A stretch of 64,000 bases of DNA from a virus, in the IMG/VR virus record IMGVR_UViG_3300042922_000725, positions 28,584-92,583 of that record; one strand, written 5' to 3'. The translations under genes were made by a program, and so were the position numbers. This document shows, in pieces, positions 42,178 to 60,772 of this stretch (positions are counted from its first letter, which is position 1; each line of letters opens with the position of its first letter). The notes below the pieces were generated by a model. That model did no database searches, was not told the DNA's origin, and saw only the letters and a list, made by a program, of their open reading frames with translations.

Positions 42178-42375
42178 ATGAATTTAAATAAATTATCTGA
42201 AAATGAAATAGAGGAATTAAAAAATATAATATTTTGGGCAATCTCTGAAGGATATAATACAAATTTGACGACTAAACTTTTAGTAAACAAACTTGCTATA
42301 ACAAAAGAAGATGTAGAATATATGGAATATCTTGATGAGAATTGTAATGTTGGTGAAAAATTAACTGATAAATAA
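42178..42375 (+). CDS. Hypothetical protein
   Basis: aggagg RBS; 65 aa. Confidence 0.5.
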   Translation: MNLNKLSENEIEELKNIIFWAISEGYNTNLTTKLLVNKLAITKEDVEYMEYLDENCNVGEKLTDK

Positions 42376-42391
42376 TCAGGAGGTGTTATAA

Positions 42392-43426
42392 ATGGGAAAA
42401 CCAATATTCGAAATGGATGTAATTAATGGATTGAGTTCAGAGTTAACTAATCTTTTGGTTAAACCATCGGGATACTTATATGTAGCAAAGAGTGGAGACG
42501 ACACGAGTGGTGATGGGAGTGCAAGCAAACCGTTTTTAACAATAGGTAAGGCTATTACAACGGCAACAAGTGGAACAACAATATTTATATATCCTGGAAC
42601 TTATACAGAAAGCTTAACATTAAAAGCTGGAGTAAACTTAACATCTTCTGCGAGATATTCGGTATATGTAAGAGGAAATGTAATCGCAAATTTTACAGGA
42701 GCGGTATTCGCTGAGAAAATTGTATTTCAAAGTAGTTCTGGAATAGTAATGAATTTTATTGGAACTGGAGTTCAAAACTTTCAAGCTTTAATGTGCAGCT
42801 TCGATTCTTTAAGTGGAAATAATTCAAATGCTATAGATTATTCAAATACAAATTCTTCAAGTAGATTTTTCTTATATGATAGTATTGCAAGTGTGGCTAC
42901 TTCCACAGGTGGAGCAAAAGTATTCTCAAGTACTTCTGGTTCTTTTGGTTCAGTTGTGTTTGACAAAACAACTTGTCAAATTACTGACAATGCAAATAAT
43001 ATATGTTTAAATTTATTAGGTGGAATTAATTATACTCATACTCAAGACCAAATAAAAGGTCAAGTTGTTGTTGGTGGAATTGCCAATTGTACCATTGCAA
43101 TATTAACTATGCAAACAAATTCTGTACCAGTCTTAGTCACTAATTCAACTGGAACAACAACGGTTTCTGAAGTAATAGTTTCTACAACTTCAACACCTGC
43201 TTTTAGTGGTGCAGGAATTTTAGTTTATATGGCTTTGATATATGCAAGCACAGGAGTGGGGGGTGCTTCAACTCTAACTGGTGGACTAGGGGCAATTCCA
43301 CTTGCAATGGCACCAATTAGATTAAGAGCAGGTTCTTTAACTACTGGTAAGAATGATGGGACGTTTGAATATGATGGGAACCATCTTTACTTTACAATTG
43401 GAACAACTAGAAACACTATTGTTTAA
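42392..43426 (+). CDS. Beta-helix fibre/spike protein (DUF1565-like)
   Basis: LYVAKSGDDTSGDGSASKPFLTI.KA...G..I.I.PGTY.E; C-terminal GTFEYDG.HLYFT. Confidence 0.75.
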   Translation: MGKPIFEMDVINGLSSELTNLLVKPSGYLYVAKSGDDTSGDGSASKPFLTIGKAITTATSGTTIFIYPGTYTESLTLKAGVNLTSSARYSVYVRGNVIANFTGAVFAEKIVFQSSSGIVMNFIGTGVQNFQALMCSFDSLSGNNSNAIDYSNTNSSSRFFLYDSIASVATSTGGAKVFSSTSGSFGSVVFDKTTCQITDNANNICLNLLGGINYTHTQDQIKGQVVVGGIANCTIAILTMQTNSVPVLVTNSTGTTTVSEVIVSTTSTPAFSGAGILVYMALIYASTGVGGASTLTGGLGAIPLAMAPIRLRAGSLTTGKNDGTFEYDGNHLYFTIGTTRNTIV

Positions 43427-43475
43427 AAATAACTAGATATTGACAATAAAATTGAAACAAGAAGGGAATGATTTT

Positions 43476-43808
43476 ATGAGCAATGTATGTATGACTAATT
43501 TTATATTTTTAAAAAATGCTACAGACGTAACCGATGGACAAATATTAACAATTGCATCTTGCTACAATTCAGTTTCAATTGAGGTTACAGGTACAGGGAC
43601 AAGTAAAGTTGTTTTTGAAGCAAGTGTAACTGGAGAAAACTGGATTCCAATAATAGGTGCGGATTTGACCACGTTGGATACACTTTCTGAAACAACTGAT
43701 AAAGGTAAAATATTTTTATTTAGTTTAACGGGTTTATATAAGTTTAGATGTAGAGTTGATAGTTATAGTAATGGAACAGTAACTTGTATAGGAAGAGTGG
43801 TGAATTAA
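43476..43808 (+). CDS. Small beta-sandwich virion protein
   Basis: V.IEVTG.....V.FEAS..G.NW...L.GL..FR.RV; in the fibre cluster. Confidence 0.55.
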   Translation: MSNVCMTNFIFLKNATDVTDGQILTIASCYNSVSIEVTGTGTSKVVFEASVTGENWIPIIGADLTTLDTLSETTDKGKIFLFSLTGLYKFRCRVDSYSNGTVTCIGRVVN

Positions 43809-44614
43809 ATTTGGATATTATCTCTTTGGGAGTGGCTAAAAAAAGCAGAAAAATAACATTAAAGCATAATACAAACGTTCCTGTTGGAGGAATAGACATT
43901 GATACAGAAATTAAAGTTATGGATACAAATGATTTGTTCGAGAAGATGTTAATAAAAAGTTTAGCACCAAAAACAAAACTTGAATTTTATGATTCTGCTG
44001 ATGAAATTATAGACTCTACCTTAATAAGAACAGCAGGAGTTCCATTAACAATAAAAACAATAAAAGCCACATCGGAAAAATCTACAAGTTCTGATATTAT
44101 TGTGAGTATGGAAACATATTCAACACCTTCGATAAGTGATTTTGACAGGTTAGATTATAACATAAATGAAAGTGAAAATATATGGACTTTTAATGATATT
44201 ACAATTGACCAAAAGGCTACTTTTTCAATAAAATCAAATAATAATAAAGGTTTAATTGGCAAATGCAATACGACATTTAACTTTGTAAATTGTTCTTATG
44301 CCGGTATTGTGCCTAGTACAACAACAATATCTACAATAACTGAAGCAGAAATAAAAAGTGGGAAGATTATATTGCAGCAAAAGGGAGATATAAATGACTC
44401 ATTTATTGGAAATGGAAAAATGTTTTTTGCATATGAATCTACTTGGGGAAATGCAAAATCTATAGTCGATGTGTTAAATAATGTGAACATTATAAATGCA
44501 TTTGAAAAAAAAGAAATAGATATAACCAATGCTAGTGGAGTTGTAAAATATGTGGTTTATTTGGCAAACGTAAGAGGTAACTACAATGAAAGTGAAGTAA
44601 ATTTAAAGTTTTAA
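43784..44614 (+). CDS. Tail-associated structural protein (probable start TTG 43811)
   Basis: DIISLG.AKK N-terminus; FAYESTWG...SI.D motif. Confidence 0.5.
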   Translation: MYRKSGELNLDIISLGVAKKSRKITLKHNTNVPVGGIDIDTEIKVMDTNDLFEKMLIKSLAPKTKLEFYDSADEIIDSTLIRTAGVPLTIKTIKATSEKSTSSDIIVSMETYSTPSISDFDRLDYNINESENIWTFNDITIDQKATFSIKSNNNKGLIGKCNTTFNFVNCSYAGIVPSTTTISTITEAEIKSGKIILQQKGDINDSFIGNGKMFFAYESTWGNAKSIVDVLNNVNIINAFEKKEIDITNASGVVKYVVYLANVRGNYNESEVNLKF

Positions 44615-44639
44615 AACTTAAATTTAAGGGGTAATCATA

Positions 44640-45197
44640 ATGAAAAAAATAAAAAATTATATAAAAGAATATATTAAAAAAATTGTATTATCTTTACTTC
44701 ATGATTTTATTGAAAATGAAATAAAGAAAGAAATAAACGAAAACATAAAAAGTTATTTAAAACTCGAAGCCGATAATGACAATACAAGTAAAATTATTGA
44801 AGAAATAAATGATATTAAAGAAATATTGAAATCAAAAGAAAATAATGAACAATATATTTCTCTTCCAAATGAAAATATTATTAATAATGGCAATAAAAAA
44901 GAAATAAAGAATGGAACTATATCTTATGATTATTCGGGTAATCAAGTAATTGAAAGAGTTTATTTAGATGGAGAATGGCTAATACCTAATAATAACATGA
45001 AAGAAGTACAAATAGTTAAAAATTATGTGAATATAGATAAGTTTGAAAGAGAATTAGATAAAGATTTGGTGTTTTCTAGTGACAAATCAATTGTTATTAC
45101 GGATAGCTTAAATCATGATGATAAATACAAAATAGTTATTAAGAGTTCAAACCTGACTTTAGAAAAAGTTAAAGATGTTAAAAAGGAGGGATTCTAA
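44640..45197 (+). CDS. Hypothetical protein
   Basis: In the fibre operon, tightly coupled to the next gene. Confidence 0.5.
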   Translation: MKKIKNYIKEYIKKIVLSLLHDFIENEIKKEINENIKSYLKLEADNDNTSKIIEEINDIKEILKSKENNEQYISLPNENIINNGNKKEIKNGTISYDYSGNQVIERVYLDGEWLIPNNNMKEVQIVKNYVNIDKFERELDKDLVFSSDKSIVITDSLNHDDKYKIVIKSSNLTLEKVKDVKKEGF

Positions 45198-45199
45198 AG

Positions 45200-46648
45200 A
45201 TGAGTGACTTTTTAAAGGGAAATCCCTTAATAGTACCTAATTATTACCTTGGAGATGTTCCTATGGACACCAAAACAAAAGCTTCTTCAGTTTCAGAAGT
45301 TTTAACAACTCTTGAAAAAGAAAATAGATATACTGGATTAACAATATATTGCGATTTAGAAAAACAATTTTATTGTTTTAAGAATGGAATTGAAGATTCT
45401 GATTTTATAAAAATAGGTGGTTCAACTTCAATAATTAAAGTTTCAAACTATGCTTCATTGCCAACTGAAAATCAAGATATTACTGCGATTTATATGACAG
45501 AAGATACAATGATTGAATATATGTGGAATGGTATTGCATGGACTAATTTTAAAAATATAGCAGACAATATATCATTTAATAATAATCCAAATGGAACTCC
45601 AATATATTCCACTGATTATGGAACAGTACAAAAAGTATTAGAAGAAAATAAAAAAGAAGTAGACTTAAAGGCTGACAAAACTTATGTTGACACTGAATTG
45701 GATAAAAAACCAATTATAGATGATGTTAGTTCAAGTATTTCATCAGTATATTCGTCAAATAAAGTTGATGAGTTAAATAACACTTTATTAGGATATATTG
45801 TAATAAAAGCTGAAATCAATGATGAAGAAGTAAGTGGTGGAATGACATATAGTTCAAGTAAATTGGAAAATGATAAATATTTAATAAATACTGATTTAAA
45901 TAACAAAGTAGATAAAGTTATAAACAAAAGTTTAATTGATGATACAGAAATAATAAGATTACAAGGAATTACTACAGGAGCAAATAAAGTTGAAGACTCT
46001 GCTGTAAATGGAAATATTAAAATCAATGGTGTTGAAAGCGTTGTATATACTCATCCTGGAACAGGTACAAATCCACATGGAACTACCAAGAGTGATATAG
46101 GTTTGGGAAACTGTGATAATACTAGTGATGTAAATAAACCAATAAGTAATGCTACACAACAAGCAATTAATAATAATTCTGTTCCTACAGGAAGTGTATT
46201 TTATACTATATCTATGACAGCTCCTAGTGGATATATAATAGGTGACGGAAGTAGTATTTCGAAAACTACATATTCGGCATTATATGCAGTTATTGGTGGC
46301 AGATTTGGAGAAACTTCAACTACATTTAATTTACCTGATTTAAGAGGTACTTTTATAAGAGGTAATAATCCAAGTGCGACAGGATATGATTCAAACAGAA
46401 CATTGGGAAGTTTGCAACAAGACGCATTCCAAGGACATACACATACGTTAAATCCTAAGGTTGGTACGAGAGCAAGTGGTGGAGATAGATATTTTTGGTC
46501 AGATGACCTCTCGTCAGTTAGTCGCGCAAAACAAACCGAATCCGAACAACTGGCAGTACCAATTACATTAGAAGGTTATGGCGTGGCTAAAATTGCTAAT
46601 GAGACACGTCCTGTCAATATTTCATTTACACCAATTATAAAACTATAA
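45200..46648 (+). CDS. Tail fibre protein with phage tail-collar domain
   Basis: NPHGTTKSDIGLGNCDNTSD.NKPIS.ATQ; P.G.....APSGY...DGS..S...YS.LYA.IG..FNLPDLRG.FIRG; ETRPVNI. Confidence 0.85.
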   Translation: MSDFLKGNPLIVPNYYLGDVPMDTKTKASSVSEVLTTLEKENRYTGLTIYCDLEKQFYCFKNGIEDSDFIKIGGSTSIIKVSNYASLPTENQDITAIYMTEDTMIEYMWNGIAWTNFKNIADNISFNNNPNGTPIYSTDYGTVQKVLEENKKEVDLKADKTYVDTELDKKPIIDDVSSSISSVYSSNKVDELNNTLLGYIVIKAEINDEEVSGGMTYSSSKLENDKYLINTDLNNKVDKVINKSLIDDTEIIRLQGITTGANKVEDSAVNGNIKINGVESVVYTHPGTGTNPHGTTKSDIGLGNCDNTSDVNKPISNATQQAINNNSVPTGSVFYTISMTAPSGYIIGDGSSISKTTYSALYAVIGGRFGETSTTFNLPDLRGTFIRGNNPSATGYDSNRTLGSLQQDAFQGHTHTLNPKVGTRASGGDRYFWSDDLSSVSRAKQTESEQLAVPITLEGYGVAKIANETRPVNISFTPIIKL

Positions 46649-46711
46649 AATATAATTATGCTCAACATGTAATACTAGGAAAGCTAATATTAATAACAGG
46701 AGGTCTTATAA

Positions 46712-47062
46712 ATGCCAAATTCAACAATTACACTTTGTAAAGTTTTTGACAACATTAGTTCTACAGGAGAGTGTATTATACCCATAAGTTCAAATGGTTC
46801 ATGTATGCGTATTGAAGCTAGAACAGATGGGGTGGCAACTTTTGAAGTTTCAACTAGTATGACAAGCAATCAAGATAATAATTATTCTTTAGTTGGAATA
46901 TTGATAAATTTAGTAAATATTTCGATAAATAATCCAGTAACAATAACATCTACCGATGGTCTTGTAGCATATTCTCTTGATTTAGGCTGTGTAAGTTATG
47001 TAAAAATAAAATTGACAAATAATACTGGAAATACAACAATAACTTGTAAAGTTTCAGATTAA
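46712..47062 (+). CDS. Small beta-sandwich virion protein (possibly related to 43476)
   Basis: Similar size and pattern; aggagg RBS. Confidence 0.45.
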   Translation: MPNSTITLCKVFDNISSTGECIIPISSNGSCMRIEARTDGVATFEVSTSMTSNQDNNYSLVGILINLVNISINNPVTITSTDGLVAYSLDLGCVSYVKIKLTNNTGNTTITCKVSD

Positions 47063-47092
47063 TTGAAAAATAATAGAAAGGAATGATATCAT

Positions 47093-47878
47093 ATGGGAAG
47101 TTTAAGCCTAAATACTGTTATTGCATTGATTAATGAATTGATTAAGAAAAATGTTAAAAATGTTGGAGATATAAAAATGACAGGAAAAACTATAGCTGAT
47201 AACGGATGGTTAATTTGTGATGGTTCGGCTATATCTAGAACTCAATATTCTGAATTATTTAGTGCAATTGGAACTGTATTTGGGACAGGAAATGGAAGTT
47301 CTACATTTAATATTCCTGATTTTAGGTCAAGAGTTCCATTAGGAGCTGGTCAAGGTGAGATAAATTTAAGTTTTGCTTCAACTGATGTAAACATTTCAAC
47401 AAATGTTATTACAATTCCATCAAACAAATCAATTTATACGGGTACACCTATAAAGTTAACATCGTTAGGCACTGCTCCAACAGGACTAACTAGCGGAACA
47501 ACATATTATGCAGTTAAATTAACAGATACAACAATTTCATTAGCAACAACAGTTTCAAATGCTGTAGCAAATCCGGCTGCTGTGATAGATATTACTGGAC
47601 AAGGAAGTGGTTTAAATAAATTAACTATAACATATTCTAATCGAAGTATTGGTGAAATTGGAGGCGAGGAAAACCATAGTCAAAATATCTCCGAACTTGT
47701 CAAGCATACACACATATATAACGATACATATGGAGTTCAAGACTTAGAAGGAGTGTTTAACAATGCTAATGCCTGTGATGAAATTAGCAGAGATGAAACA
47801 ACTTCTGTAACTGGTGGAAGCGTACCATTTAATGTTATGAATCCGTATTTAGGAATTAATTTCATGATTAAATATTAA
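47093..47878 (+). CDS. Tail-collar domain fibre protein
   Basis: GWLICDGSAISRTQYSELFSAIG...GSSTFNIPDFR; GGEE.H; PYLGINFMIKY. Confidence 0.85.
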   Translation: MGSLSLNTVIALINELIKKNVKNVGDIKMTGKTIADNGWLICDGSAISRTQYSELFSAIGTVFGTGNGSSTFNIPDFRSRVPLGAGQGEINLSFASTDVNISTNVITIPSNKSIYTGTPIKLTSLGTAPTGLTSGTTYYAVKLTDTTISLATTVSNAVANPAAVIDITGQGSGLNKLTITYSNRSIGEIGGEENHSQNISELVKHTHIYNDTYGVQDLEGVFNNANACDEISRDETTSVTGGSVPFNVMNPYLGINFMIKY

Positions 47879-47949: not shown

Positions 47950-48159
47950 CTATCTATAATTTCTAACATCTTCACGGATTTTGTCTTGTAAATTTTGATT
48001 GGTACATAGTTCAATAATTAATTTATCAAGAATTTTACCCATTGGCTCTTTCCATCGAATACTTAGTATTTGCAAATCTTCATATACCTTTTCATGGAAA
48101 GTTAGATGACCGTCTACTCTACTACCAGTTTTTAAATAATCCATTTTGGATTTCATCAT
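47950..48159 (-). CDS. Small DNA-binding protein (ribbon-helix-helix-like), divergent from the recombinase
   Basis: HLTFHEKVYEDL..LS..W..PMGKILDKLI; gaggtgg RBS. Confidence 0.55.
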   Translation of the reverse strand: MMKSKMDYLKTGSRVDGHLTFHEKVYEDLQILSIRWKEPMGKILDKLIIELCTNQNLQDKIREDVRNYR

Positions 48160-48221
48160 TTATACACCACCTCATGTAAATTATACTATAATTTGTACAT
48201 TTGTACAAGAGTTCAAATATA

Positions 48222-48354: not shown

Positions 48355-49401
48355 ATGGCTAAAATAGTAAGAGTTAAATATTTTACAGAAGAAAAGAAAA
48401 AATTAATCAGTGAATCAAATAAAAAACTTTATGATAAATACCTTAAATCAAATATAATAAAAAACAGAGAAGTTGAAGATACAACTTATGGTGTTTATAC
48501 TAATAATATGACACACTTCATGATATTTTTGGCTGAAAATTATGATAATGTTGGGCTTTACGATGAAGATTTTATAAAAAATGCAGTAGATATAATGGAA
48601 GATTACATATCTTTTTGTCAAGATACTTTGCAGAATAATAAAAAAACTATCAACAACAAAATAGCTGCGGCATCGTCGTTTTATGCATGGTCAATGAAAA
48701 GAAAATATATAGGATTTCATCCCTTTGATAAGAGACTTGACAGAATGAAAGGAGCAAAAGACGAAAAAATTATTAATTCTTATTTTTTAACAGAAGAAGA
48801 AATAAATAAAATAAAAGAAGGATTGGAAGATTCTAAGAGTTTCGATATTCAAGATAAAATATTGTTTTATTTGGCTATCGATAGTGCTAATAGAATAGGA
48901 GCATTGAGTAAGCTGACCCTTTCTAGCATGGATATAGATGAAATGGTTTTTAAAGACATAAGGGAAAAACGTGGAAAACGTGTTGAAGTGGTATTTGAAG
49001 AAAAAACTCGTGAGTTAATTGAAGATTGGCTTTATCAAAGAAAAGATAATTATGATAAAATGGAAGTTGACTCTTTATTTATAGCAAATTATAAAACATG
49101 GATACCTATGGGAAAAAGTTCTTTACAAGAAAGAATCAGAAAAATAGGAATGATTATTGGATTAGAAGATTTTCATGCTCACTGCACAAGAAAATCGGCT
49201 ATAAATTTAATAGTTGAAAAGACAGGAGATATCTCGTTAGGTGCCGAAATTGCGAATCATGAAAGTGTTGAGACAACTCGTCAAAGTTATGTTAAACCAA
49301 GGTCAAAATCTCAAACTAGAAATAAGATAAAAGAGTTAATAAAAGAGAAAGACTTGGCAAAGAAACAAATAGAAGATAATGAAAAACAAGAGGAGTTATA
49401 A
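48355..49401 (+). CDS. Tyrosine recombinase (XerC/D-like)
   Basis: Catalytic R (SANRIG), K (EKRGK), HxxR (HCTRKS), H (ANHES) and Y (RQSYVK). Confidence 0.9.
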   Translation: MAKIVRVKYFTEEKKKLISESNKKLYDKYLKSNIIKNREVEDTTYGVYTNNMTHFMIFLAENYDNVGLYDEDFIKNAVDIMEDYISFCQDTLQNNKKTINNKIAAASSFYAWSMKRKYIGFHPFDKRLDRMKGAKDEKIINSYFLTEEEINKIKEGLEDSKSFDIQDKILFYLAIDSANRIGALSKLTLSSMDIDEMVFKDIREKRGKRVEVVFEEKTRELIEDWLYQRKDNYDKMEVDSLFIANYKTWIPMGKSSLQERIRKIGMIIGLEDFHAHCTRKSAINLIVEKTGDISLGAEIANHESVETTRQSYVKPRSKSQTRNKIKELIKEKDLAKKQIEDNEKQEEL

Positions 49402-49410: not shown

Positions 49411-49587
49411 ATGCAATCCCTAATCGGTAAGAAACTTGTTACTACCGATAAACGAATTATTGAAATAACAAAAGTAATAGATGGAGTGGCTTATTTTTTA
49501 GTCTACCATCAAGATAACATAACTGATAAAAAGATAGGCTGCTGTAATGTATTAAAAATTATAAACGCCTTGAATGTAATAAAATAA
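49411..49587 (+). CDS. Hypothetical 58-aa protein (below ORF-track cutoff)
   Basis: MQSLIGKKLVTTDKRIIEITKVIDG...; fills the gap in the operon. Confidence 0.45.
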   Translation: MQSLIGKKLVTTDKRIIEITKVIDGVAYFLVYHQDNITDKKIGCCNVLKIINALNVIK

Positions 49588-49638
49588 AAATGGGAAGTGA
49601 TGATTAATAATTTAAGAGAAAGGCAGGTAAATAATAAT

Positions 49639-50193
49639 ATGGAAGAAAATTTGATGCATCAAATGAAATCTGAAATGGACGTTATGCAAAACAAGATAAA
49701 ATTTCTTGAATTGAAACTTGAGTATATGGAGAAATCAGGATTAAGGAGAGAAGAATATACTGAGTTAGTTAAGGAGATAGCAACTTTAAAAGCTTCTTTA
49801 AAAGAGATTAAGAATGATAGAGAAGAAGATAAATCGATGATTTATGCTCTTAGTGGAAAAATAGAAGACGTTGAAAAATTAATAAGACAATTTATAGCTA
49901 ATACTGCAAAAATAGAAATATCTCAACAAGATGTTGTTAAACAGGTTGATACAATGGATAAACGAGTTAATAATAAAATAGACTCATTAGAAGCAAAGAT
50001 TGAAAAATTAACTCAATTAATGACATTTAACTGGGTTGAAATGGTTAAAAATTTTATTAACTATAATTTAGTAACAAAATTGTTTTCATATTTCAGTTTT
50101 GTAAGTATTATATTTTTAATTATAGAAATGGTTTTATATTACTTAGGTATACCTATTGATATAAAAGCAATAACAAAAGCATTTAAAGGATAA
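49639..50193 (+). CDS. Coiled-coil protein with C-terminal TM helix
   Basis: About 130-aa heptad region, then LFSYFSFVSIIFLIIEMVLYYLGI. Confidence 0.7.
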   Translation: MEENLMHQMKSEMDVMQNKIKFLELKLEYMEKSGLRREEYTELVKEIATLKASLKEIKNDREEDKSMIYALSGKIEDVEKLIRQFIANTAKIEISQQDVVKQVDTMDKRVNNKIDSLEAKIEKLTQLMTFNWVEMVKNFINYNLVTKLFSYFSFVSIIFLIIEMVLYYLGIPIDIKAITKAFKG

Positions 50194-50220: not shown

Positions 50221-50676
50221 ATGCAATTTGCACTAGCATTTTTATACTTAATACTTGAGACAATATGGATAGTCTATATAACGTTAGTCTTTCTTAAGAA
50301 AGATAATATAAAATTAATAAATTTAAAAGTTCTAATTCCTATAACAGGATTTTCTTTATTAGTTAAATATCACACATCCTCATCTATGCTTATACAAATA
50401 GTTTTAGCAATATTGTTATATTCTACAATAATATGGATTCAAAATTATAAAATTAATCCATTAAAGGTTTTTGGTTTTACAATATTGTCCTTTCTAATTA
50501 TGTTTGGTATAGAGTTATGTGTAACAAAAATAATATTTGACTTATTACATATTAATGCTTTTTTAATAAAAAATAATGTTGTTTTACATTTTATTATTAA
50601 TTTACCAATTAAGAGTATAATGTATACAATATTATATATAAATTACAATAAAAGGAGGATTGCAAACTATGTTTAG
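50221..50676 (+). CDS. Stand-alone AgrC-type membrane sensor domain (no kinase)
   Basis: About 5 TM helices with ILET.. and ..IE.. patterns typical of AgrC/VirS N-termini; overlaps the agrD start. Confidence 0.55.
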   Translation: MQFALAFLYLILETIWIVYITLVFLKKDNIKLINLKVLIPITGFSLLVKYHTSSSMLIQIVLAILLYSTIIWIQNYKINPLKVFGFTILSFLIMFGIELCVTKIIFDLLHINAFLIKNNVVLHFIINLPIKSIMYTILYINYNKRRIANYV

Positions 50677-50776
50677 AAAATTATTATCTTTAACAGCATT
50701 CGTATTCGTTGGTGTTGGAACAATGGTTGGAATGTGTTGGTTTGTGGGTTATCAAGAAGAAGCTCCAAAGCTTTAA
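50669..50776 (+). CDS. agrD: AgrD-like cyclic peptide precursor (35 aa)
   Basis: MFRKLLSLTAFVFVGVGTMVGM-CWFVG-YQEEAPKL; aggagg RBS; directly upstream of agrB; not in the ORF track. Confidence 0.85.
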   Translation: MFRKLLSLTAFVFVGVGTMVGMCWFVGYQEEAPKL

Positions 50777-50794
50777 TAGGATAAAACAAAACTA

Positions 50795-51382
50795 ATGATT
50801 ATAAAAATTGCAGAACATTATGCTAGATTACTTGTTGAAAAATCTAGCGAAACAGAAAGAGAGTATCAGATATATAGATACTCTCTTATATTTTATATCA
50901 GTACAATATTCCAACTAACATTGATATTTTCTATGACCTATTTACTAGGCTTATTTTTATATGCACTACCTATTGTTTTAATGTACATTCCTCTAAGAGC
51001 TATTGCCGGAGGATATCATCATAAATATTTAGGTAATTGCACCTTATTTTCCATGATTGAAATAATATTGTTCTCATATTTAGCTAAATCACAGTATTTA
51101 AACAATGCAATCTCGATAGCTTTTATTTGTATTTTTATGATAGTAACTATTATAACATCTATGCCAAAAGACAATATTTATTTAAAACCAACAAATAGAA
51201 ATAAAAAAATTGTAAAGAAGTTATATATCATAGTTTTAATTTTAATGACTGTATTAGTGATAGTATTTCCTAATTTACAATCATTTTTATTAGCTGCTAT
51301 TACATATTCGTGTTTACAATGTAGTAACCCTTATTATGTTATTAATATATGGGTAGATAAAAAAATAAAAATTGAATTATAA
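50795..51382 (+). CDS. agrB: AgrB-family peptide-processing membrane protease
   Basis: YQIYRYSL; PLRAIAGGYH.....NC (catalytic His/Cys); PKD...KP. Confidence 0.9.
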   Translation: MIIKIAEHYARLLVEKSSETEREYQIYRYSLIFYISTIFQLTLIFSMTYLLGLFLYALPIVLMYIPLRAIAGGYHHKYLGNCTLFSMIEIILFSYLAKSQYLNNAISIAFICIFMIVTIITSMPKDNIYLKPTNRNKKIVKKLYIIVLILMTVLVIVFPNLQSFLLAAITYSCLQCSNPYYVINIWVDKKIKIEL

Positions 51383-51693: not shown

Positions 51694-51765
51694 ATAAAGT
51701 TATAGGCGCATTTCGGTGTGCCTTTTTATGTTGAATATAATAATCTTAATTGATAAGGAGATAAA

Positions 51766-52576: not shown

Positions 52577-53620
52577 TTACAAGGCACTCTTTAAAATGCA
52601 ATCCAATCTCCTTCCCTTTACGAAACTTTTAATTCCATATTGTACGTTCATAAAACTATTTATTACAACTGTTAAGGTAATTGCTGAAACCTCAATTGCA
52701 AAAATGTGAATAAGTATATTACTTGTTATGAATATAATAGCTCCGGCAATTCCTAATTTTAAGCTATTCGTTCTTATCATTTCATGGATTTTATCTTTTG
52801 TTTCTTTTCCATGTTTTAAATTATCAATATATAATTCATTAACTTGTAAGTTTCTGTTTAGTTCATCAACATCAATACTGTTTCTACTTAATAACCATTG
52901 AATTAAAGGATTGATGATAAACATTAAGCCACTATTTATTAATAAATTATCAGCTACTAAATTACTTAATAAGCTGCTAATAACTAAACTTGTTGTATAT
53001 GTATTTCTTCCCGAAAAACTAAGCTTATCAACTTTGCCTTTATAATGAATATCAATATCTTCTGTACTTTTTAAAATTCTGTAATTATATGTAAATAACA
53101 ATCCTATAGAAGCAAATGTTAACAAGGTAGACACTAAGCTTCCTGTAGATAATCCTATAATAATTTTTGGAATACTAAATATAAAATTAAGTAATATTGA
53201 AATTGAAATTCCGTCGATAGTTTTAAGTTTATCTAGTTTGTCAATTATAAAAGTAGTTGCTGTAGATTTTAATATGTTGAGCGATAAGGAAATAAAATAA
53301 TTAATACCATCATACCGACTTGAAACTATTAATCCTGTTATTATGCCAGTTGCAATTGATAAAGTTTTTGTATATTTTGATATTTGGATTTTATTAATGT
53401 CTGGTTTTATAGATTTAATAGTTTCTATAATACTAGAGCTGATTAAATAAGGAGTATATGATGGTATATTTTGATTTAGGCTTACTGGGAATTTATTTAT
53501 ATTATTTATTTTTAATTTATCTAAGAGTGTAATTAAAGTTTGAACTGTAGTACATTTTAGTGTTAACGTTAGTATATTGTTTATTTTATCAGTTGCTATA
53601 TTAATAGAATTTTTATTCAT
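52577..53620 (-). CDS. Divergent SecY-like preprotein translocase homologue
   Basis: Colinear SecY motifs: TPYLISSSII, ISKYTKTLSI, IDGISISILLNFIFSIP, DELNRNLQVNELYIDNLKHGKET, SAITLTVVI. Confidence 0.7.
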   Translation of the reverse strand: MNKNSINIATDKINNILTLTLKCTTVQTLITLLDKLKINNINKFPVSLNQNIPSYTPYLISSSIIETIKSIKPDINKIQISKYTKTLSIATGIITGLIVSSRYDGINYFISLSLNILKSTATTFIIDKLDKLKTIDGISISILLNFIFSIPKIIIGLSTGSLVSTLLTFASIGLLFTYNYRILKSTEDIDIHYKGKVDKLSFSGRNTYTTSLVISSLLSNLVADNLLINSGLMFIINPLIQWLLSRNSIDVDELNRNLQVNELYIDNLKHGKETKDKIHEMIRTNSLKLGIAGAIIFITSNILIHIFAIEVSAITLTVVINSFMNVQYGIKSFVKGRRLDCILKSAL

Positions 53621-53641: not shown

Positions 53642-53812
53642 TTATTTTAAAATAAAATATGTAGCCGAATAATACTTTCTCATTCCCTTATCATTAATTA
53701 TCTCAAATTGCAATCCATTATTGCTTTTATATGTATGCTCTATTTTATATCTCTTTTCTTTAGTTAAAAAATATTTAATATCAATTTTACTGGTTATATA
53801 TTGATTACTCAT
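53642..53812 (-). CDS. Hypothetical 56-aa protein
   Basis: [24 protein letters not shown]...IINDKG.RKYY; overlaps the thyX stop. Confidence 0.5.
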
Positions 53813-54638
53813 GATTGTTCTTTTCTGTTAATTGTTTTAATGTTGGATATCTTCCACATGACATATTACCTTCTTTACAGTATCCTAATTGTACACATGA
53901 AGCTCCTGCCTTTTTAAATAAGGTGGGGGCTATTTTTTTTACTTCAATCAACATTGCATAGGCTAATTCTTGTATCTCGTCTTGTGCTCTAGAACAGCAA
54001 CGATGATTGAAAAAATTTAATAAGCTTCTAGCATTCATGGTTACGATAATTTTTGTTTCACAAGCGTTAGGGAAAACATATCTTGCATTTTCTATAGCTT
54101 TCTTTTCAAATTTACTATAAAGTTTTTTATTATCACTCTTAATTTCATGTAAAGCTTGATTAATATAATCAATATTTTTAAAATCCCAATAATCTAATTT
54201 TAAATGTTCAGCTATATAATGTTTAATCAAACCTTCAACTAGACTATCATAGTCTCTTTGTGATTGTTTCATATTCTCTATGTATAACTTTCTTAATTCA
54301 GTATATCTATCTATTTCTTTAGGAATAATATATTCAAATTGATTCAATCTGACATATCTTTGACTTTGCTGAGAATAAGATGCTATCCTATGTCTAACTA
54401 GTTGATGTGAAAGGCTTCTACTAACACCTTCTATTCCAAATGTAAATGAAACGTGTTCTAAAGGTGATTCATGCCCAAGAGATATTAACATATTTACAAA
54501 TTTATCAATGTTTTCTTCGGTTAAATCTTCTCCTATTTCGTCAATTGTTGAAGCAGAATAACATAATTTCCCTGCTTGAGCTATTACCTTTTCAGGATTT
54601 GGTGTATGTTCTAATATTTTTACTTCTAATTCTACCAT
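53805..54638 (-). CDS. thyX: FAD-dependent thymidylate synthase
   Basis: GHESPLEH and the [14 protein letters not shown] signature; upstream TTGACA-17-TACTAT promoter at 54773-54745. Confidence 0.97.
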
Positions 54639-54808
54639 CTAATTTCCTCGCTTTCTAAATTATATTTATCAATATTTAATTGGATATATGGTTACTAAAG
54701 TGAATTGATTGTTTTATGTATAAACCTTAGTAACCACTAATATCATAGTATCATGTTTTGAAATTCATGTCAATATAGTAGATTGAATATATTTATATTT
54801 AATTGTAT

Positions 54809-57079
54809 TTATTCGAACTTTACTTCTTTAACGCTATCATTTGTACTTCTCAAGTTCAAAATAAAGTTCCCTTGGTTTCTTACTCTGCTTTTTAGGTATT
54901 CGTATAAACACCTTGTCTCTGAATTTTTCCCAGTAGTGGCAATATCATCAAGTTTAAACTCTTTAATTTTTCCCTTTTCCGTTGTAATTGTAAAGTTAAG
55001 AATTTTACTAGGATTAATTACACAAGCCATTACTTTATTATTTTCAGATTCTCCCAAATTCATTGCTTGGTTTCCTTGACTATTTCTAGATTGCTTGCTT
55101 GATATTTCTTCTACATTGACAAGTACGCCTTTACATTCCTGTGAAATCATAAACACATCTACATCGTTTTTAATGTATTCTATATCTAATAATTTACTTT
55201 CTATAGAGTAACAATTTTGAAGTTTTTTATTTGCAGATATAAAAGATTTAATATCTACTTTGGAGATTTTACCATTTTCATAAACTGATAATATATAACC
55301 CTGTGCTTTTGTTTCATCTTCCAATGATACTAATTTAATTACTTTTTCATTTGGTTCAAGGTCTATTAGATTTGGAAGATATTCTCCTAATACAGAAGGT
55401 TTAGAATCAGAAATATCATAAGCATTAAGTTTATATCTATTGGCTTTATTGGTTATACAATATAGTGTTGATTTATTAGTTGAGTCTATTTCTTGTATGA
55501 TATTATCATTATCTTTTAATTTTTGCTCGTCGGTTCCCTTTCCTCTGAGGGATGTTAATGGGATTTTCTTAATCCAATTTTGTTCTGTGAATATTATTTT
55601 GGTGTTATAATCAGGAACGGTATCAAGTTTTGAAATATCTTCAATATTTTCATCTGTAATTATTTCTGTTTTACGCTCAACACCGTATTTCTCTTTAATA
55701 TTTTCTAGCTGAGATATTATTATATCTTCTATTTTTTGGTCAGAGCTTAAAATTTGTTGAAGTTCCATTATTTGATTTTTAATTTCGTTAACGTTTTTAA
55801 TTTTCTTTAGTATCCAGTCTTCGTTTATATTAATCAGTCTAATTGTTGAAACATATTCAGATTGTGCTTGATTTAAATTAAAGTGATTTGTTAACTTATC
55901 AATAGCTTCTTTTTCTGTTTTAGATGTTCTGATTAATTTTATTGCCATGTCTAAATCTTGATTAATCAACTCTAGCCCTAGAAGTTTGTTTAAATCTTCA
56001 TTTAATTTGTTAATATCATATGTTAATTCACCCTTTATACATGTGGTTCTATGAATCAACCATTTAATATAAATATCTTTTAAAGACATAAGCTTTGGAG
56101 TTTTTCCATCTAAATCTAATACGGTAAAGTTACATGAAAATTTTGATTCATAAGGAGTATACTTTCTTAGTTTTTGTTCAAATTGTTTTAAATCCGTATT
56201 CTTTTTTAAATAGATGTCTAACTGAATACCTTGTCTTCCATTATTGTTGTGAATATGGGTAATTTCTTTAAATAATCCTTTGTCATAGGCAGCTATAAGT
56301 TTTGTTTCAATATCTTCAATATATGCTTCATACGGAACTTCTATAATTGAAACTTTGCTTTCTTTTTCATCGTAAATATATTTACCTAATAAAGTAAAAC
56401 TTCCTCGACCTGTCTTATAAATAGTATTAAAGGTATTTTTATTATATATTATTCTACCACAAGTTCCTATGAAGTCTGGACATTGCAATATTTCTATAGC
56501 TTTATCTATATCTTTGTTTAATATAAATGATTTTAAGCTATTACATGTTTCTATTAAATTATGAGGTGGTATTTTAGACGCTTCCCCAACGGCTATACTT
56601 TGTGATATATTAGTTAGTATATTAGGGATTATTGATGGAAGTAAAATAGGTTCATCTTCTGTATTATCAAAATTTCTTTTAGTAGGAACTATGTTTTTAT
56701 TAATTCCTTCTAACATACTTTCAGAATAAGGACTTAACTTACATTCAACATATCTAGGACTCGCTCCATCATCTTCTTTCTTTCTCTTATCTCCATAGCT
56801 ACCTTTTGGTGTTAGATAAAAATAATTAAGTCCGTTGTTAGCCATGTTTTTCATAGCAGAGAATAGTGGAATATCTCCAAATATATAAAAGACCATTGCA
56901 AATGCTCCTGCTCTATGGAGCTTTATAAATTGTTTGTCACTGTTTATTTTATTAATGTGCAACGCCCAAATGACTTTTCTTTGAACTGGAAGTAAGCCAT
57001 CGATACTAGGTAAATTATTGATAAGTACGGGGCTACAAAATTCAGTAAATTCTTCTTTTAATACTTCAACTATGTCCAT
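54809..57079 (-). CDS. Type IIA DNA topoisomerase subunit A (GyrA/ParC-like)
   Basis: LP..DGL.PVQRK; ASPRY catalytic Arg-Tyr; IAVG.AS.IPPHNL; PDF; degenerate CTD. Confidence 0.92.
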   Translation of the reverse strand: MDIVEVLKEEFTEFCSPVLINNLPSIDGLLPVQRKVIWALHINKINSDKQFIKLHRAGAFAMVFYIFGDIPLFSAMKNMANNGLNYFYLTPKGSYGDKRKKEDDGASPRYVECKLSPYSESMLEGINKNIVPTKRNFDNTEDEPILLPSIIPNILTNISQSIAVGEASKIPPHNLIETCNSLKSFILNKDIDKAIEILQCPDFIGTCGRIIYNKNTFNTIYKTGRGSFTLLGKYIYDEKESKVSIIEVPYEAYIEDIETKLIAAYDKGLFKEITHIHNNNGRQGIQLDIYLKKNTDLKQFEQKLRKYTPYESKFSCNFTVLDLDGKTPKLMSLKDIYIKWLIHRTTCIKGELTYDINKLNEDLNKLLGLELINQDLDMAIKLIRTSKTEKEAIDKLTNHFNLNQAQSEYVSTIRLININEDWILKKIKNVNEIKNQIMELQQILSSDQKIEDIIISQLENIKEKYGVERKTEIITDENIEDISKLDTVPDYNTKIIFTEQNWIKKIPLTSLRGKGTDEQKLKDNDNIIQEIDSTNKSTLYCITNKANRYKLNAYDISDSKPSVLGEYLPNLIDLEPNEKVIKLVSLEDETKAQGYILSVYENGKISKVDIKSFISANKKLQNCYSIESKLLDIEYIKNDVDVFMISQECKGVLVNVEEISSKQSRNSQGNQAMNLGESENNKVMACVINPSKILNFTITTEKGKIKEFKLDDIATTGKNSETRCLYEYLKSRVRNQGNFILNLRSTNDSVKEVKFE

Positions 57080-57090
57080 AAAATCTCCTT

Positions 57091-59130
57091 TTACTCAATG
57101 TTATTTAAGTCAATTTTAGTTATATTTTCTCTTATAAATTCTTTTCTTGGTAAGGTGTCTGTATCCATAAACATTTCAAAATGTTTATTTATCAAAGCTT
57201 CGTTCAATTGGTCATATTCTACAGGAATAAAAGTTTTTTTTCTTGCCTCATCAGATAAAACATATAACCAAAAATCCTCTTTGTTAAATTCTCCTAAACC
57301 TTTTTTTATTCCGATAGTGTATTTTATATTTTTAGAATTTAATTCTTGAATTAAGTTTTCTTTTTCAATATCATTATATGCAAATAAGCTTTCTTCTGTT
57401 TTTGTTAATATAAATTCATATCTAGGAGATGTAATTAAATACACTCTGTTTTGTTTAAGTAATGTTGGCATAAATTTATACATAAAGGTTAATATTGACA
57501 GATTTATTGCCCTACCAAAGGCATCTCGGTCACAAAGTATTCCAAGTGAACCATAATTTAAATTATCTATATTAAATGTTTGGATATCTTTATATTTTTT
57601 TCTTTCTTCATAAGGTATTTCTATTCCACAACCCAATGCATTAATAATTCTTAAAGCAGGTTCATTGTCTAATACATCAGATACTTTGGCTTTATAACTA
57701 TTAATAAACCTACCTCTTAATCCACAACAGCCCATTATTCTAGGGTCAATTGAGTTTTCTATTGTAGAATTAGCAGAAATACCTTCATCTACAATGAATA
57801 TGCGTTCCTCAACTTTTGATTTTTTAAAATCACAATGTTTAACGCCCGGTATTTTACTGAATGAGGATTTTGTTTCACCTTGTAATTTTTTCTTTATATC
57901 TAATTTAGATTGTTCAGCTTTTTCATTTGCTCTTTTATTAATAAGGCACTGTCCTATAATTTTATCTGCAACAAGTTTGTTTTCTGTAAAATATACTATT
58001 AGTTTATCTTTTAAAGAGCTTGTTGTAAAGTCTTTTATAAATTTATTATTTATGCTTAATTTAGTTTGATTAGCATAGCTCGTCATAGTTGAAAAACTAG
58101 AAATCATACAACTAAAACTGTCTTGTATATCCGTAAACTTTATTTTACTTTCGTTTTTGTTATATAAGTTGTTATTTTTTATATATTCATGAATTGCATT
58201 AGTAAAAGCACTTTCAATAGCTTCAGCAGTTGAACCACCCTGCAATAATTCAGAACTATTGTGAAAATATTGTAATGTATTAACAGTATTGTTAAAAACA
58301 AAAGCTATTTCGTAACTAAATTTATATTCTGGTTTATCACTTCTATCTTTACCTATTCCACTATCACTGAAAGTTATAATATCTGTTATATTTTCATCAG
58401 TAGTTATTTCTTGCAGATAGTCTACAATTCCATTTTCATAAAAGTGGGTGTATATAATATCTGCACTTTCGTCATAAACATCTATTTTTAAACCTTTGTT
58501 GACCACAGTTTGTTTTTTTAACTTATCATTTATCCAATCTATGGGTATATTGATATTTGTAAAAACTTCTAAGTCTGGCTTATAATAAATTTTTGTTCCC
58601 TGCTCATTATCAATATTTGACTCCGTTTTTAAAACTCTTTCTCCTTGTTCTTTGCTAAATAAATTATCATCATCATCACAAATGAATTCTTCTGTATTTT
58701 TGTCTACTGGTCTGCCTTTTTTGAATTTAGTAGTGTATTTTTTGCCATCTCTGTATGATATAACATTCATGTAGTCTGATGCATATTGTGAACTGGTAAG
58801 ACCTAATCCATTAAGACCTATTGAAGTGGAGTCTGCGTCATAATTGTCAGAAGCATACAATACTTTTAAAGCCAAGTCCCAATTGTAAGCATTTTCTTTT
58901 TCGTTCCACTCCATAGGTAGTCCATCTGCAAAATCTAATACAGAATAATTTAAATCTTTATGTTTGATGATTTTAATATAGTTCCCATATCCTTTTCTAT
59001 ATCTATCTATAGAATTACTCGTAATTTCAAACAAGGTATGTTGGCACCCTTTTATGTCATCTGAACCCATCATTACAGAAACTCTTTTTCTAATTCTTTC
59101 AGAACCTTTTAATCTTGTTAAATCTGCCAA
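57091..59130 (-). CDS. Type IIA DNA topoisomerase subunit B (GyrB/ParE-like)
   Basis: EI..NSID, GLNGLG, NQTK, EG.SA, GLRG, D.D..G, KGLGE; TTG start. Confidence 0.92.
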   Translation of the reverse strand: MADLTRLKGSERIRKRVSVMMGSDDIKGCQHTLFEITSNSIDRYRKGYGNYIKIIKHKDLNYSVLDFADGLPMEWNEKENAYNWDLALKVLYASDNYDADSTSIGLNGLGLTSSQYASDYMNVISYRDGKKYTTKFKKGRPVDKNTEEFICDDDDNLFSKEQGERVLKTESNIDNEQGTKIYYKPDLEVFTNINIPIDWINDKLKKQTVVNKGLKIDVYDESADIIYTHFYENGIVDYLQEITTDENITDIITFSDSGIGKDRSDKPEYKFSYEIAFVFNNTVNTLQYFHNSSELLQGGSTAEAIESAFTNAIHEYIKNNNLYNKNESKIKFTDIQDSFSCMISSFSTMTSYANQTKLSINNKFIKDFTTSSLKDKLIVYFTENKLVADKIIGQCLINKRANEKAEQSKLDIKKKLQGETKSSFSKIPGVKHCDFKKSKVEERIFIVDEGISANSTIENSIDPRIMGCCGLRGRFINSYKAKVSDVLDNEPALRIINALGCGIEIPYEERKKYKDIQTFNIDNLNYGSLGILCDRDAFGRAINLSILTFMYKFMPTLLKQNRVYLITSPRYEFILTKTEESLFAYNDIEKENLIQELNSKNIKYTIGIKKGLGEFNKEDFWLYVLSDEARKKTFIPVEYDQLNEALINKHFEMFMDTDTLPRKEFIRENITKIDLNNIE

Positions 59131-59142
59131 AATATCACTTCC

Positions 59143-60252: not shown

Positions 60253-60284
60253 TAACTTTCTCCTTTCTTAATTAAATTAAAATA

Positions 60285-60761: not shown

Positions 60762-60772
60762 ATCCTTTCATA

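What the first reader, a model, noticed from the sequence alone, without database searches (positions are those of the whole stretch)
50221..51382. Phage agr-like quorum-sensing cassette with an unannotated AgrD and a kinase-less receptor
Seen: a 151-aa multi-TM gene overlaps a 35-aa agrD (50669-50776, missed by the ORF track), followed by an intact agrB. The predicted thiolactone ring is CWFVG, followed by YQEEAP. Established: this matches AgrD layouts such as CLWFT-HQPEEP (C. perfringens) and CFMFV-YEPKSP (Listeria), and agr genes are known on C. difficile phage phiCDHM1. Unusual here: the AgrC-like protein stops right after its membrane domain, and no histidine kinase or AgrA is in the window. 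Inference: either phage-phage communication through a non-kinase receptor, or a jammer that makes an antagonist peptide and sponges host AIP.
Basis: partly seen in the sequence, partly recalled or inferred. Interest (0 to 1): 0.8.

Follow-up and report, generated by a model that had tools for sequence, protein, structure and literature searches.

The report
Phage agr peptide cassette, kinase-less
A large uncultivated Clostridium-type phage carries intact genes for making a cyclic quorum-sensing peptide (agrD and agrB), preceded by an orphan five-helix membrane protein that looks like the front part of the AgrC peptide sensor but has no kinase, so the signal maker is solid while how, or whether, the phage itself senses the signal is still open.

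Summary
The window is the 3' 64 kb of a 92.6-kb IMG/VR phage contig, about 52% complete, whose closest named relative is Clostridium phage c-st. At 50221-51382 lie three co-oriented genes:
- ORF151, a membrane protein with about 5 TM helices.
- A 35-aa agrD (TIGR04223, above cut-off) whose start overlaps the ORF151 stop by 8 nt.
- An intact agrB (PF04647, 82.6 bits) with the catalytic His75 and Cys82 conserved.

No HATPase_c_5 kinase, LytTR or receiver domain occurs anywhere on the contig.

ORF151 is a strict ORFan, with only itself found among 5.8 and 1.84 billion proteins. Its likeness to AgrC is suggestive, not proven:
- The ESM Atlas model matches the N-terminal membrane part of two AgrC-type kinase clusters (TM 0.72 and 0.68).
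- A home-made AgrC sensor HMM gives 11.8 bits, colinear with helices 1-5. That is above every negative control and within the range of divergent true AgrC sensors, but most of the score comes from the TM pattern.

Missing kinases are normal for C. perfringens-type agr loci, and phage agr genes have been known since phiCDHM1.

The same scan has already noted kinase-less AgrC-like proteins beside agrD in about 30 other genomes; none is sequence-related to this one.

Verdict: a new variant of a known kind, of moderate interest.

The parts
48191..48218 (.). Overlapping palindrome (TTGTACA...TGTACAA) in the divergent intergenic region upstream of the integrase-to-agrB gene string. It is a candidate operator or promoter region.
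   Evidence: the repeat finder I2; sequence read. Its function is inferred only.
48355..49401 (+). Tyrosine recombinase/integrase, the first gene of the co-oriented string.
   Evidence: PF00589 E 1.3e-19; phrog_1 integrase E 7e-28.
49411..49587 (+). 58-aa ORF of unknown function.
   Evidence: ORF list; no Pfam hit.
49597..50193 (+). ORF198: a long coiled-coil-like N-terminal part with a single C-terminal TM helix (residues 162-180). It ends 28 nt upstream of ORF151.
   Evidence: KD hydropathy scan; only weak coiled-coil-type Pfam noise.
50221..50676 (+). ORF151: an ORFan membrane protein with about 5 TM helices. The positive-inside rule suggests N-out/C-in, with an 11-residue cytoplasmic tail. 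It is a candidate kinase-less AgrC-sensor-like protein.
   Evidence: topology; no relatives; Atlas structure match to HATPase_c_5 kinases, TM 0.72/0.68; custom AgrC sensor HMM 11.8 bits, with controls.
50653..50658 (+). AGGAGG ribosome-binding site of agrD, lying inside the 3' end of ORF151.
   Evidence: Sequence read directly.
50669..50776 (+). agrD: a 35-aa precursor with leader MFRKLLSLTAFVFVGVGTMVGM, predicted ring CWFVG and C-terminal tail YQEEAPKL.
   Evidence: TIGR04223 24.6 bits, above the cut-off of 19; phrog_24854; comparison with other AgrD sequences.
50795..51382 (+). agrB: the membrane cysteine peptidase that should cleave and cyclise AgrD. His75 and Cys82 are conserved.
   Evidence: PF04647 82.6 bits; alignment A1 invariant columns H75, C82, P124, D126, R135; 23-29% identity to plasmid AgrBs.
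51535..51693 (+). 52-aa ORF of unknown function, the last gene before the terminator.
51704..51723 (+). The only intrinsic-terminator-like hairpin in 47.8-52.7 kb, and the likely 3' end of the transcription unit.
   Evidence: scan_promoters_terminators: 8-bp stem followed by a T run.

Best explanation
The cassette is a phage-borne module for producing an autoinducing peptide. AgrB (His75/Cys82) should cleave the 35-aa AgrD after Gly27 and form a five-residue thiolactone, Cys23-Trp-Phe-Val-Gly27. A second, host-supplied cleavage should then remove the hydrophobic leader and release the peptide.

The cassette sits just downstream of the integrase, in the accessory region between the tail-fibre and replication modules. 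It is therefore most likely expressed from the resident phage, as a lysogen or phage-plasmid.

ORF151 is translationally coupled to agrD. It is most likely a much-diverged, shortened copy of the membrane sensor of an AgrC-type kinase (helices 1-5) with no output domain. It cannot phosphorylate anything. If it handles the peptide, it must act inside the membrane by binding the peptide or another membrane protein.

The transcriptional read-out of the signal is most likely made by a kinase encoded elsewhere: in the host, as VirS does for C. perfringens, or in the missing half of the phage.

Shown: the genes, their family membership, the catalytic residues and the absence of a kinase or regulator on the contig. 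Inferred: peptide production, ring identity, expression state, the AgrC ancestry of ORF151, and every step of sensing.
For: - AgrD and AgrB both score above curated cut-offs.
- AgrB His75 and Cys82 are invariant in alignment A1.
- The AgrD layout matches clostridial and listerial AgrDs aligned.
- The 8-nt ORF151/agrD overlap and the RBS are read directly from the sequence.
- The gene string is co-oriented from the integrase to a single terminator-like hairpin.
- No PF14501, PF04397 or PF00072 is present on the 92.6-kb contig.
- The Atlas model of ORF151 (pTM 0.65) aligns over about 140 residues with two HATPase_c_5 kinase clusters at TM 0.72 and 0.68. The next named folds (Yip1) reach only about 0.5.
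- The custom HMM was built from 96 AgrC-type sensors. ORF151 scores 11.8 bits, colinear from residue 1 to HMM positions 1-138 of 205.
- Negative controls for that HMM: 500 global shuffles reach at most 4.4 bits, 900 local shuffles at most 9.4, the reversed sequence -7.2, and all other phage ORFs and about 35 natural multi-TM ORFs at most 3.6.
- Held-out true AgrC sensors score 5.5 to 49.9 bits with the same HMM.
- TM1-5 of ORF151 lie at nearly the same positions as TM1-5 of a 7-TM clostridial AgrC.
- Published precedent: an unlinked receptor in C. perfringens (PMC7300355, PMC7492741), and phage agr genes in phiCDHM1 (PMC3901668).
Against: - ORF151 has no sequence relative and no family hit.
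- hhalign probability is only 11%.
- Local shuffles that keep the hydrophobic pattern reach 9.4 bits, so most of the HMM score reflects helix spacing rather than residue identity.
- My own AF2 model is poor (pTM 0.36) and matches nothing in the BFVD viral library.
- The Atlas comparison is between two predicted models.
- ORF151 would lack helices 6-7 of the sensor.
- A Gly at the ring-closing position and an 8-residue C-terminal tail are unusual for AgrD, so processing is not guaranteed.
- The contig is only about 52% complete, so a phage kinase cannot be excluded.
- The host is unknown.
Confidence: 0.55

Rival explanations
1. Phage-to-phage communication. ORF151 is the true receptor of the phage's own peptide and signals without phosphorylation. 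The route could be the neighbouring membrane-anchored coiled-coil protein ORF198 or another membrane partner, and the output would bias the lysis/lysogeny or maintenance decision, as arbitrium does.
For: - ORF151 is translationally coupled to agrD and lies 28 nt after ORF198, in one co-oriented string that starts with the integrase.
- The fold and HMM signal resemble an AgrC sensor.
- The cassette is private to this phage. AgrB is absent from c-st and from 19 ThyX-related viral contigs.
- No matching peptide is known in any bacterial genome searched.
Against: - ORF151 has only an 11-residue cytoplasmic tail and very short loops, so nothing obvious could carry a signal inward.
- No DNA-binding protein, MazF or LytTR is linked to the cassette.
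- No partner has been shown.
- ORF151 and ORF198 have no relatives, so co-variation cannot be tested.
Confidence: 0.15
2. Host manipulation or jamming. The phage peptide acts on a host or competitor AgrC/VirS-type kinase as an agonist or antagonist. ORF151 works as a decoy that binds host peptide, or as a dominant-negative partner of the host sensor.
For: - The CLWFTH ring sequence is given in PMC7300355.
- Cross-inhibition between AIP variants is established for staphylococci (PMC10482373). A six-membered analogue inhibits the C. perfringens system (PMC7300355).
- No phage-encoded output is present on the contig.
Against: - No bacterial AgrD with the same ring plus YQ was found in three large collections, so no target system can be named.
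- The host is unknown.
- Sponge or decoy action by a sensor fragment has no precedent that I could find in the literature searches.
Confidence: 0.15
3. ORF151 has nothing to do with sensing. It could be a biosynthesis or export accessory of AgrB/AgrD, comparable in position to the uncharacterised ORFs co-transcribed with agrBD in C. perfringens. It could also be an unrelated small phage membrane protein, for example one for superinfection exclusion, whose resemblance to AgrC is only that of a compact helical bundle.
For: - It is an ORFan with no family hit.
- The HMM score is mostly TM pattern, and hhalign probability is 11%.
- In C. perfringens the two upstream hypothetical ORFs are co-transcribed with agrBD. 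Complementation succeeded only with the construct carrying all four genes (PMC2706048).
- Steps of AIP maturation and export beyond AgrB need extra membrane proteins in S. aureus (PMC9388083; bioRxiv 10.64898/2026.09.29.755489, abstract only).
Against: - Among named folds, only AgrC-type kinases match the Atlas model above TM 0.65.
- ORF151 outranks all natural multi-TM controls with the AgrC sensor HMM.
- There is no CPBP/Abi (MroQ-like) or transporter signature in Pfam at E<=1.
Confidence: 0.25
4. The system is canonical but the contig is incomplete. A cognate AgrC/AgrA pair lies in the roughly 48% of the phage genome that is missing, and ORF151 is an extra paralogous sensor fragment.
For: - CheckV completeness is 52% for a linear fragment.
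- The relative c-st is 186 kb.
- agrCA can be transcribed apart from, or divergently to, agrBD, as in the C. estertheticum plasmid loci.
Against: - In every locus fetched here, the kinase and regulator lie within about 2 kb of agrBD.
- Here the flanks are an integrase, a Holliday-junction-resolvase-like gene and replication genes.
Confidence: 0.12

Closest known systems
agr3 locus of Clostridioides difficile phage phiCDHM1 (agrC-agrB-agrD; PMC3901668)
   Same: Phage-borne agr genes with no response regulator. The receptor-type gene lies upstream of the peptide genes. The host is a low-GC clostridial-type bacterium. The genes are thought to be a lysogeny-associated accessory cassette.
   Different: The phiCDHM1 AgrC is a full 453-aa kinase with a HATPase domain, whereas ORF151 is 151 aa with no kinase. 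The order here is agrD then agrB. There is no detectable sequence similarity: tblastn of this AgrB and of ORF151 against 50,697 phage records found nothing.
Clostridium perfringens Agr-like operon CPE1563-CPE1562-agrB-agrD, sensed by the unlinked VirS/VirR (PMC2706048, PMC7300355, PMC7492741)
   Same: agrBD has no two-component system in the locus. Uncharacterised ORFs are co-transcribed upstream. The AgrD has a hydrophobic leader, an aromatic five-residue ring and an acidic, proline-containing tail.
   Different: That operon is chromosomal, not phage-borne, and its order is agrB then agrD. Whether CPE1562 or CPE1563 resembles ORF151 could not be tested, because no handle on a bacterial genome could be obtained.
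Canonical agrBDCA (Staphylococcus aureus; the Listeria and clostridial plasmid loci fetched here as L022, L029, L033, L035)
   Same: AgrB with catalytic His and Cys, an AgrD precursor, and a multi-helix membrane protein adjacent to them. The agrD-then-agrB order also occurs in C. estertheticum plasmid locus L035.
   Different: All of those loci carry a GHKL kinase and a LytTR regulator within about 2 kb. This one has neither on 92.6 kb.
Kinase-less AgrC-like membrane proteins beside agrD in other phages and Clostridia, noted earlier in this scan (unpublished AI notes)
   Same: The same arrangement: a stand-alone sensor-like membrane protein directly upstream of a phage agrD, with no kinase.
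   Different: Those proteins are described as six or seven helices and as detectable relatives of AgrC or of one another. ORF151 has five helices and shares no sequence words with any of them.

Membership tests
AgrD (TIGR04223, cyclic lactone autoinducer peptide precursor) | Profile score above the curated cut-off | tested here: met
   24.6 bits against a cut-off of 19, E 2.1e-5.
AgrD (TIGR04223, cyclic lactone autoinducer peptide precursor) | A 30-55 aa precursor with an N-terminal leader, a Cys (or Ser) followed by four ring residues, and an acidic, Pro-containing C-terminal tail | tested here: met
   The sequence reads leader, then C23WFVG27, then YQEEAPKL. The tail is short at 8 aa, and the ring ends in Gly, which is unusual.
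AgrD (TIGR04223, cyclic lactone autoinducer peptide precursor) | Encoded next to agrB | tested here: met
   There are 18 nt between the agrD stop and the agrB start.
AgrD (TIGR04223, cyclic lactone autoinducer peptide precursor) | Is processed to a secreted thiolactone peptide | not testable with these tools
   Needs LC-MS of expressing cultures.
AgrB (PF04647) | Profile score above the gathering threshold over the full domain | tested here: met
   82.6 bits against 23; residues 7-174 match profile positions 2-175 of 185.
AgrB (PF04647) | Catalytic His and Cys seven residues apart (H77/C84 in S. aureus AgrB, from my own knowledge of the literature) | tested here: met
   H75 and C82 fall in invariant columns of alignment A1 of six AgrBs.
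AgrC (HPK10-class peptide-sensing histidine kinase) | N-terminal polytopic sensor of 6-7 TM helices | tested here: inconclusive
   ORF151 has 4-5 helices, colinear with TM1-5 of clostridial AgrC. Custom HMM 11.8 bits, above the negative controls. Atlas TM 0.72/0.68. hhalign probability 11%.
AgrC (HPK10-class peptide-sensing histidine kinase) | Cytoplasmic DHp helix with the phospho-accepting His, and a HATPase_c_5 catalytic domain | tested here: not met
   ORF151 ends 11 residues after its last helix. There is no PF14501 match in ORF151 or anywhere on the contig.
AgrC (HPK10-class peptide-sensing histidine kinase) | Cognate LytTR response regulator (AgrA) | tested here: not met
   No PF04397 or PF00072 on 92.6 kb. 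The contig is only about 52% complete.
C. perfringens-type agr operon (upstream hypothetical ORFs plus agrBD, receptor unlinked) | Upstream ORFs homologous to CPE1562/CPE1563 | not tested
The sequences could not be fetched.

The most novel reading that the evidence does not exclude
ORF151 is a working receptor for the phage's own CWFVG thiolactone. It signals without any phosphotransfer, through intramembrane contact with a partner such as the membrane-anchored coiled-coil protein ORF198, to set the lysogeny, maintenance or induction state of a c-st-like phage. That would be a second, agr-derived kind of phage-phage peptide communication beside arbitrium.
Probability: 0.12. Interest if true: 0.85.

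Novelty: new variant of a known kind. Interest (0 to 1): 0.5.

Why it matters
Phage-encoded agr genes have been known since phiCDHM1 (2014), but their role has never been worked out. Arbitrium remains the main well-characterised peptide system for phage-phage communication.

A cassette that pairs signal production with a sensor-like protein that cannot phosphorylate anything points to one of three things:
- A phosphorylation-free way of reading a cyclic peptide.
- A decoy strategy against host quorum sensing.
- An unrecognised accessory of AIP biosynthesis.

Each of these would be new biology for agr systems. Relatives of this phage (c-st-like phages and phage-plasmids) live in clostridia, where agr signalling controls sporulation and exoprotein production.

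This instance also shows how fast such cassettes diverge. Neither ORF151 nor this AgrB has a close relative among billions of proteins.

Tried and rejected
- **Sequence relatives of ORF151.** Only itself turned up in the 5.8-billion word-indexed search and in the exhaustive phmmer over 1.84 billion representatives of all lengths. No truncated-kinase relative can therefore be shown. tblastn against phages also found nothing.
- **Relatives of this AgrB.** The word-indexed search, viral contigs and tblastn against phages found only itself or nothing. The nearest match is a 28% identical AgrB on a C. estertheticum plasmid.
- **Cassette in related phages.** AgrB is absent from 19 ThyX-related viral contigs and from c-st.
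- **Other phage agr loci.**
  - The AgrC single-protein query found nothing.
  - The six-sequence AgrB alignment was too divergent to give search patterns.
  - The four-sequence alignment gave one viral locus, L034, with agrB-agrD at a contig end and no information on a sensor.
- **A host peptide with the same ring.** Pattern scans for CWFVGYQ(xE) in genomes, metagenomes and viral contigs gave only out-of-frame or high-GC chance hits.
- **Structure.** The single-sequence AF2 model of ORF151 is poor (pTM 0.36, with one unbroken helix over residues 80-150). Its BFVD search gave nothing below E 0.7. The PDB holds only the cytoplasmic modules of AgrC, so no solved sensor exists to compare with. 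phmmer of ORF151 against the PDB was empty.
- **Complex prediction of AgrB with ORF151.** No answer (score 0.00, controls not run). This is evidence neither for nor against binding.
- **CPBP/MroQ-like protease idea.** It was raised by FxxxH and HxxxN strings at residues 106-110 and 123-127. I rejected it because the motifs sit 13 residues apart rather than on separate helices, and Pfam shows no hit at E<=1.
- **DUF5317 and MazF**, both named in earlier notes. Neither is on the contig.
- **Rfam scan of 47.5-53 kb.** Only two sub-threshold chance hits, with no riboswitch or RNAIII-like RNA.
- **LytTR-type direct repeats upstream.** None were seen.
- **Promoter scan.** Uninformative in this AT-rich DNA: 41 sites found against 35.6 expected.
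Full report
**What is there**

The window is bases 28584-92583 of a 92,583-bp linear IMG/VR virus record that CheckV rates 52% complete. It is a low-GC phage, 21-30% GC around the locus.
- It carries tail-collar and pectate-lyase-like tail-spike genes, ThyX, GyrA, GyrB, an NAD-dependent ligase and an integrase.
- Its GyrA is 54% identical to that of Clostridium phage c-st, which is 186 kb. The phage is therefore a distant c-st-like Clostridium-type phage of roughly twice the contig length.

Between the tail-fibre module and the oppositely oriented replication module lies a co-oriented gene string:
- Integrase, 48355-49401.
- A 58-aa ORF.
- ORF198, 49597-50193: coiled-coil-like, with one C-terminal TM helix.
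- ORF151, 50221-50676.
- agrD, 50669-50776.
- agrB, 50795-51382.
- A 52-aa ORF.
- The only terminator-like hairpin of the region, 51704-51723.

**Checking the observation**

- agrD is real. It hits TIGR04223 at 24.6 bits against a cut-off of 19, and it has an AGGAGG 10 nt upstream.
- The agrD ATG overlaps the ORF151 stop codon in ATGTTTAG, so the two genes are translationally coupled.
- The product is MFRKLLSLTAFVFVGVGTMVGM-CWFVG-YQEEAPKL. This is the same three-part layout as the clostridial and listerial AgrDs fetched for comparison.
- agrB hits PF04647 at 82.6 bits. It keeps His75 and Cys82 in columns that are invariant across six AgrBs. From my own knowledge these correspond to catalytic H77/C84 of S. 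aureus AgrB.
- No HATPase_c_5, LytTR or receiver domain is found on the whole contig at E<=1.
- The order agrD-then-agrB is not unique. A C. estertheticum plasmid locus has it too.

**What ORF151 is**

It is a strict ORFan.
- It has no Pfam, NCBIfam or PHROG hit.
- Only itself was found among 5.8 billion clustered proteins.
- Only itself was found in an exhaustive phmmer over 1.84 billion representatives of any length.
- So no full-length kinase relative exists from which it could be a recent truncation. There is also no room for a kinase remnant, because agrD starts inside its last codons.

Hydropathy gives helices at about 4-20, 32-48, 57-73, 81-101 and 120-138. Basic residues sit in alternate loops and in the 11-residue C-terminal tail, which fits an N-out/C-in topology.

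Two lines of evidence link it to AgrC sensors.
1. **ESM Atlas structure search.**
   - The Atlas's own model of this exact protein has pTM 0.65.
   - It aligns over about 140 residues with the N-terminal part of two clusters of HATPase_c_5 (AgrC-type) kinases, at TM 0.72 and 0.68 by query.
   - It also aligns with an unnamed 147-aa Bacillota cluster at 0.72/0.74.
   - The next named folds, Yip1-like, reach only about 0.5.
2. **A custom HMM.**
   - I built it from the N-terminal ~205 residues of 96 full-length AgrC-type kinases, retrieved with the C. estertheticum plasmid AgrC.
   - ORF151 scores 11.8 bits. Residues 1-142 are colinear with HMM positions 1-138 of 205, that is helices 1-5 of a 6-7-helix sensor.

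Controls for the HMM:

| Control | Score (bits) |
|---|---|
| 500 global shuffles of ORF151 | at most 4.4 |
| 900 block shuffles that keep the local hydrophobic pattern | at most 9.4 |
| Reversed ORF151 | -7.2 |
| All other phage ORFs and about 35 natural multi-TM ORFs from 472 kb of fetched DNA | at most 3.6 |
| Held-out true sensor, Listeria AgrC | 49.9 |
| Held-out true sensor, second C. estertheticum AgrC | 40.8 |
| Held-out true sensor, E. raffinosus | 9.4 |
| Held-out true sensor, L. sakei | 5.5 |

ORF151 therefore scores like a divergent true sensor and above every negative control. The margin over pattern-preserving shuffles is small, however. hhalign gives P 6e-4 but a probability of only 11%. 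My own AF2 model is poor.

I rate 'AgrC-sensor-derived' at roughly 55-60%. ORF151 is certainly not an AgrC kinase.

**How it most likely works**

The solid part is signal production. AgrB should cleave AgrD after Gly27 and form the Cys23 thiolactone. A host protease should then remove the leader. All of this is inferred from family membership.

The location directly after the integrase suggests expression from the resident phage. phiCDHM1 is a published precedent for transcription of phage agr genes in lysogens (PMC3901668).

Who reads the signal is open.
- The lack of a linked kinase is not exceptional. The C. perfringens agr locus encodes no two-component system, is co-transcribed with two uncharacterised upstream ORFs, and is sensed by the unlinked VirS (PMC2706048, PMC7300355, PMC7492741).
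- About half of this phage is unsequenced.
- ORF151 has essentially no cytoplasmic mass. Any role in sensing must therefore be intramembrane: binding the peptide, or binding another membrane protein.
- Against the mimic version of the jammer idea, no precursor with CWFVGYQ exists in a real AgrD context in any of the three collections searched.
- An accessory role in biosynthesis or export, or no connection to the peptide at all, is an equally serious rival.

**Comparison with what is known**

Phage agr genes were described in 2014. phiCDHM1 carries agrC-agrB-agrD with a full 453-aa kinase and no regulator (PMC3901668). My literature searches found no description of a kinase-less AgrC-like protein in a phage agr cassette.

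Within this scan, however, similar cassettes have already been noted about 40 times in at least 30 other genomes. None shares sequence words with this locus. Those notes are leads only; I did not test them.

The cassette is private to this phage among its known kin. It is absent from c-st and from 19 ThyX-related viral contigs.

**Verdict**

- This is a new variant of a known kind: a phage agr cassette with an orphan, shortened, kinase-less sensor-like protein.
- Interest is moderate. As an exemplar it is weaker than others in the scan, because ORF151 has no relatives and its link to AgrC rests on predicted structure and a borderline profile score.

Noticed in passing
window 52577-53620 (- strand): A 347-aa polytopic protein matches Pfam SecY (PF00344) at E 3.5e-9, 36.9 bits against a cut-off of 32.2, over profile positions 9-300 of 306. 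It has no PHROG hit. A shortened, phage-encoded SecY-like protein lying 1.2 kb from the agr cassette is unusual. It could matter for inserting or exporting the cassette's membrane proteins or peptide.
   Followed up: partly
window 47950-48159 (- strand) and 48191-48218: A 69-aa ORF is transcribed divergently from the integrase-agr string. The region between them holds an overlapping TTGTACA/TGTACAA palindrome and a GAACGTTC palindrome. This may be a small regulator with its operator controlling the string. The ORF has no Pfam or PHROG hit.
   Followed up: partly
window 49597-50193: ORF198 has about 160 residues of coiled-coil-like sequence followed by a single C-terminal TM helix, and ends 28 nt upstream of ORF151. 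It has no family assignment and is a possible membrane partner of ORF151.
   Followed up: no
window 53805-63670 (- strand): The replication and nucleotide module comprises ThyX, GyrA (54% identical to Clostridium phage c-st), GyrB, a GIY-YIG nuclease and an NAD-dependent DNA ligase. This makes the contig a distant c-st-like phage. c-st itself has no AgrB.
   Followed up: yes
window 40247-47878: Several receptor-binding candidates lie in a row: two pectate-lyase/beta-helix proteins (40247-41950 and 42392-43426) and two tail-collar-domain proteins (45200-46648 and 47093-47878).
   Followed up: no
L035 (NZ_CP086251.1 37477-39660) and L022: The C. estertheticum plasmid pDSM14864-80 carries two complete agr loci. 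One has the order agrD-agrB-agrC with a divergent LytTR gene, next to a LanM lanthipeptide synthetase and a peptidase-ABC transporter.
   Followed up: no
L034 3119-4782 (IMGVR_UViG_3300045988_155243): A second viral contig carries an XRE-type regulator, agrB (208 aa) and a 41-aa agrD with ring CLVFA, at the very end of the contig. Whatever follows agrD is not assembled.
   Followed up: partly
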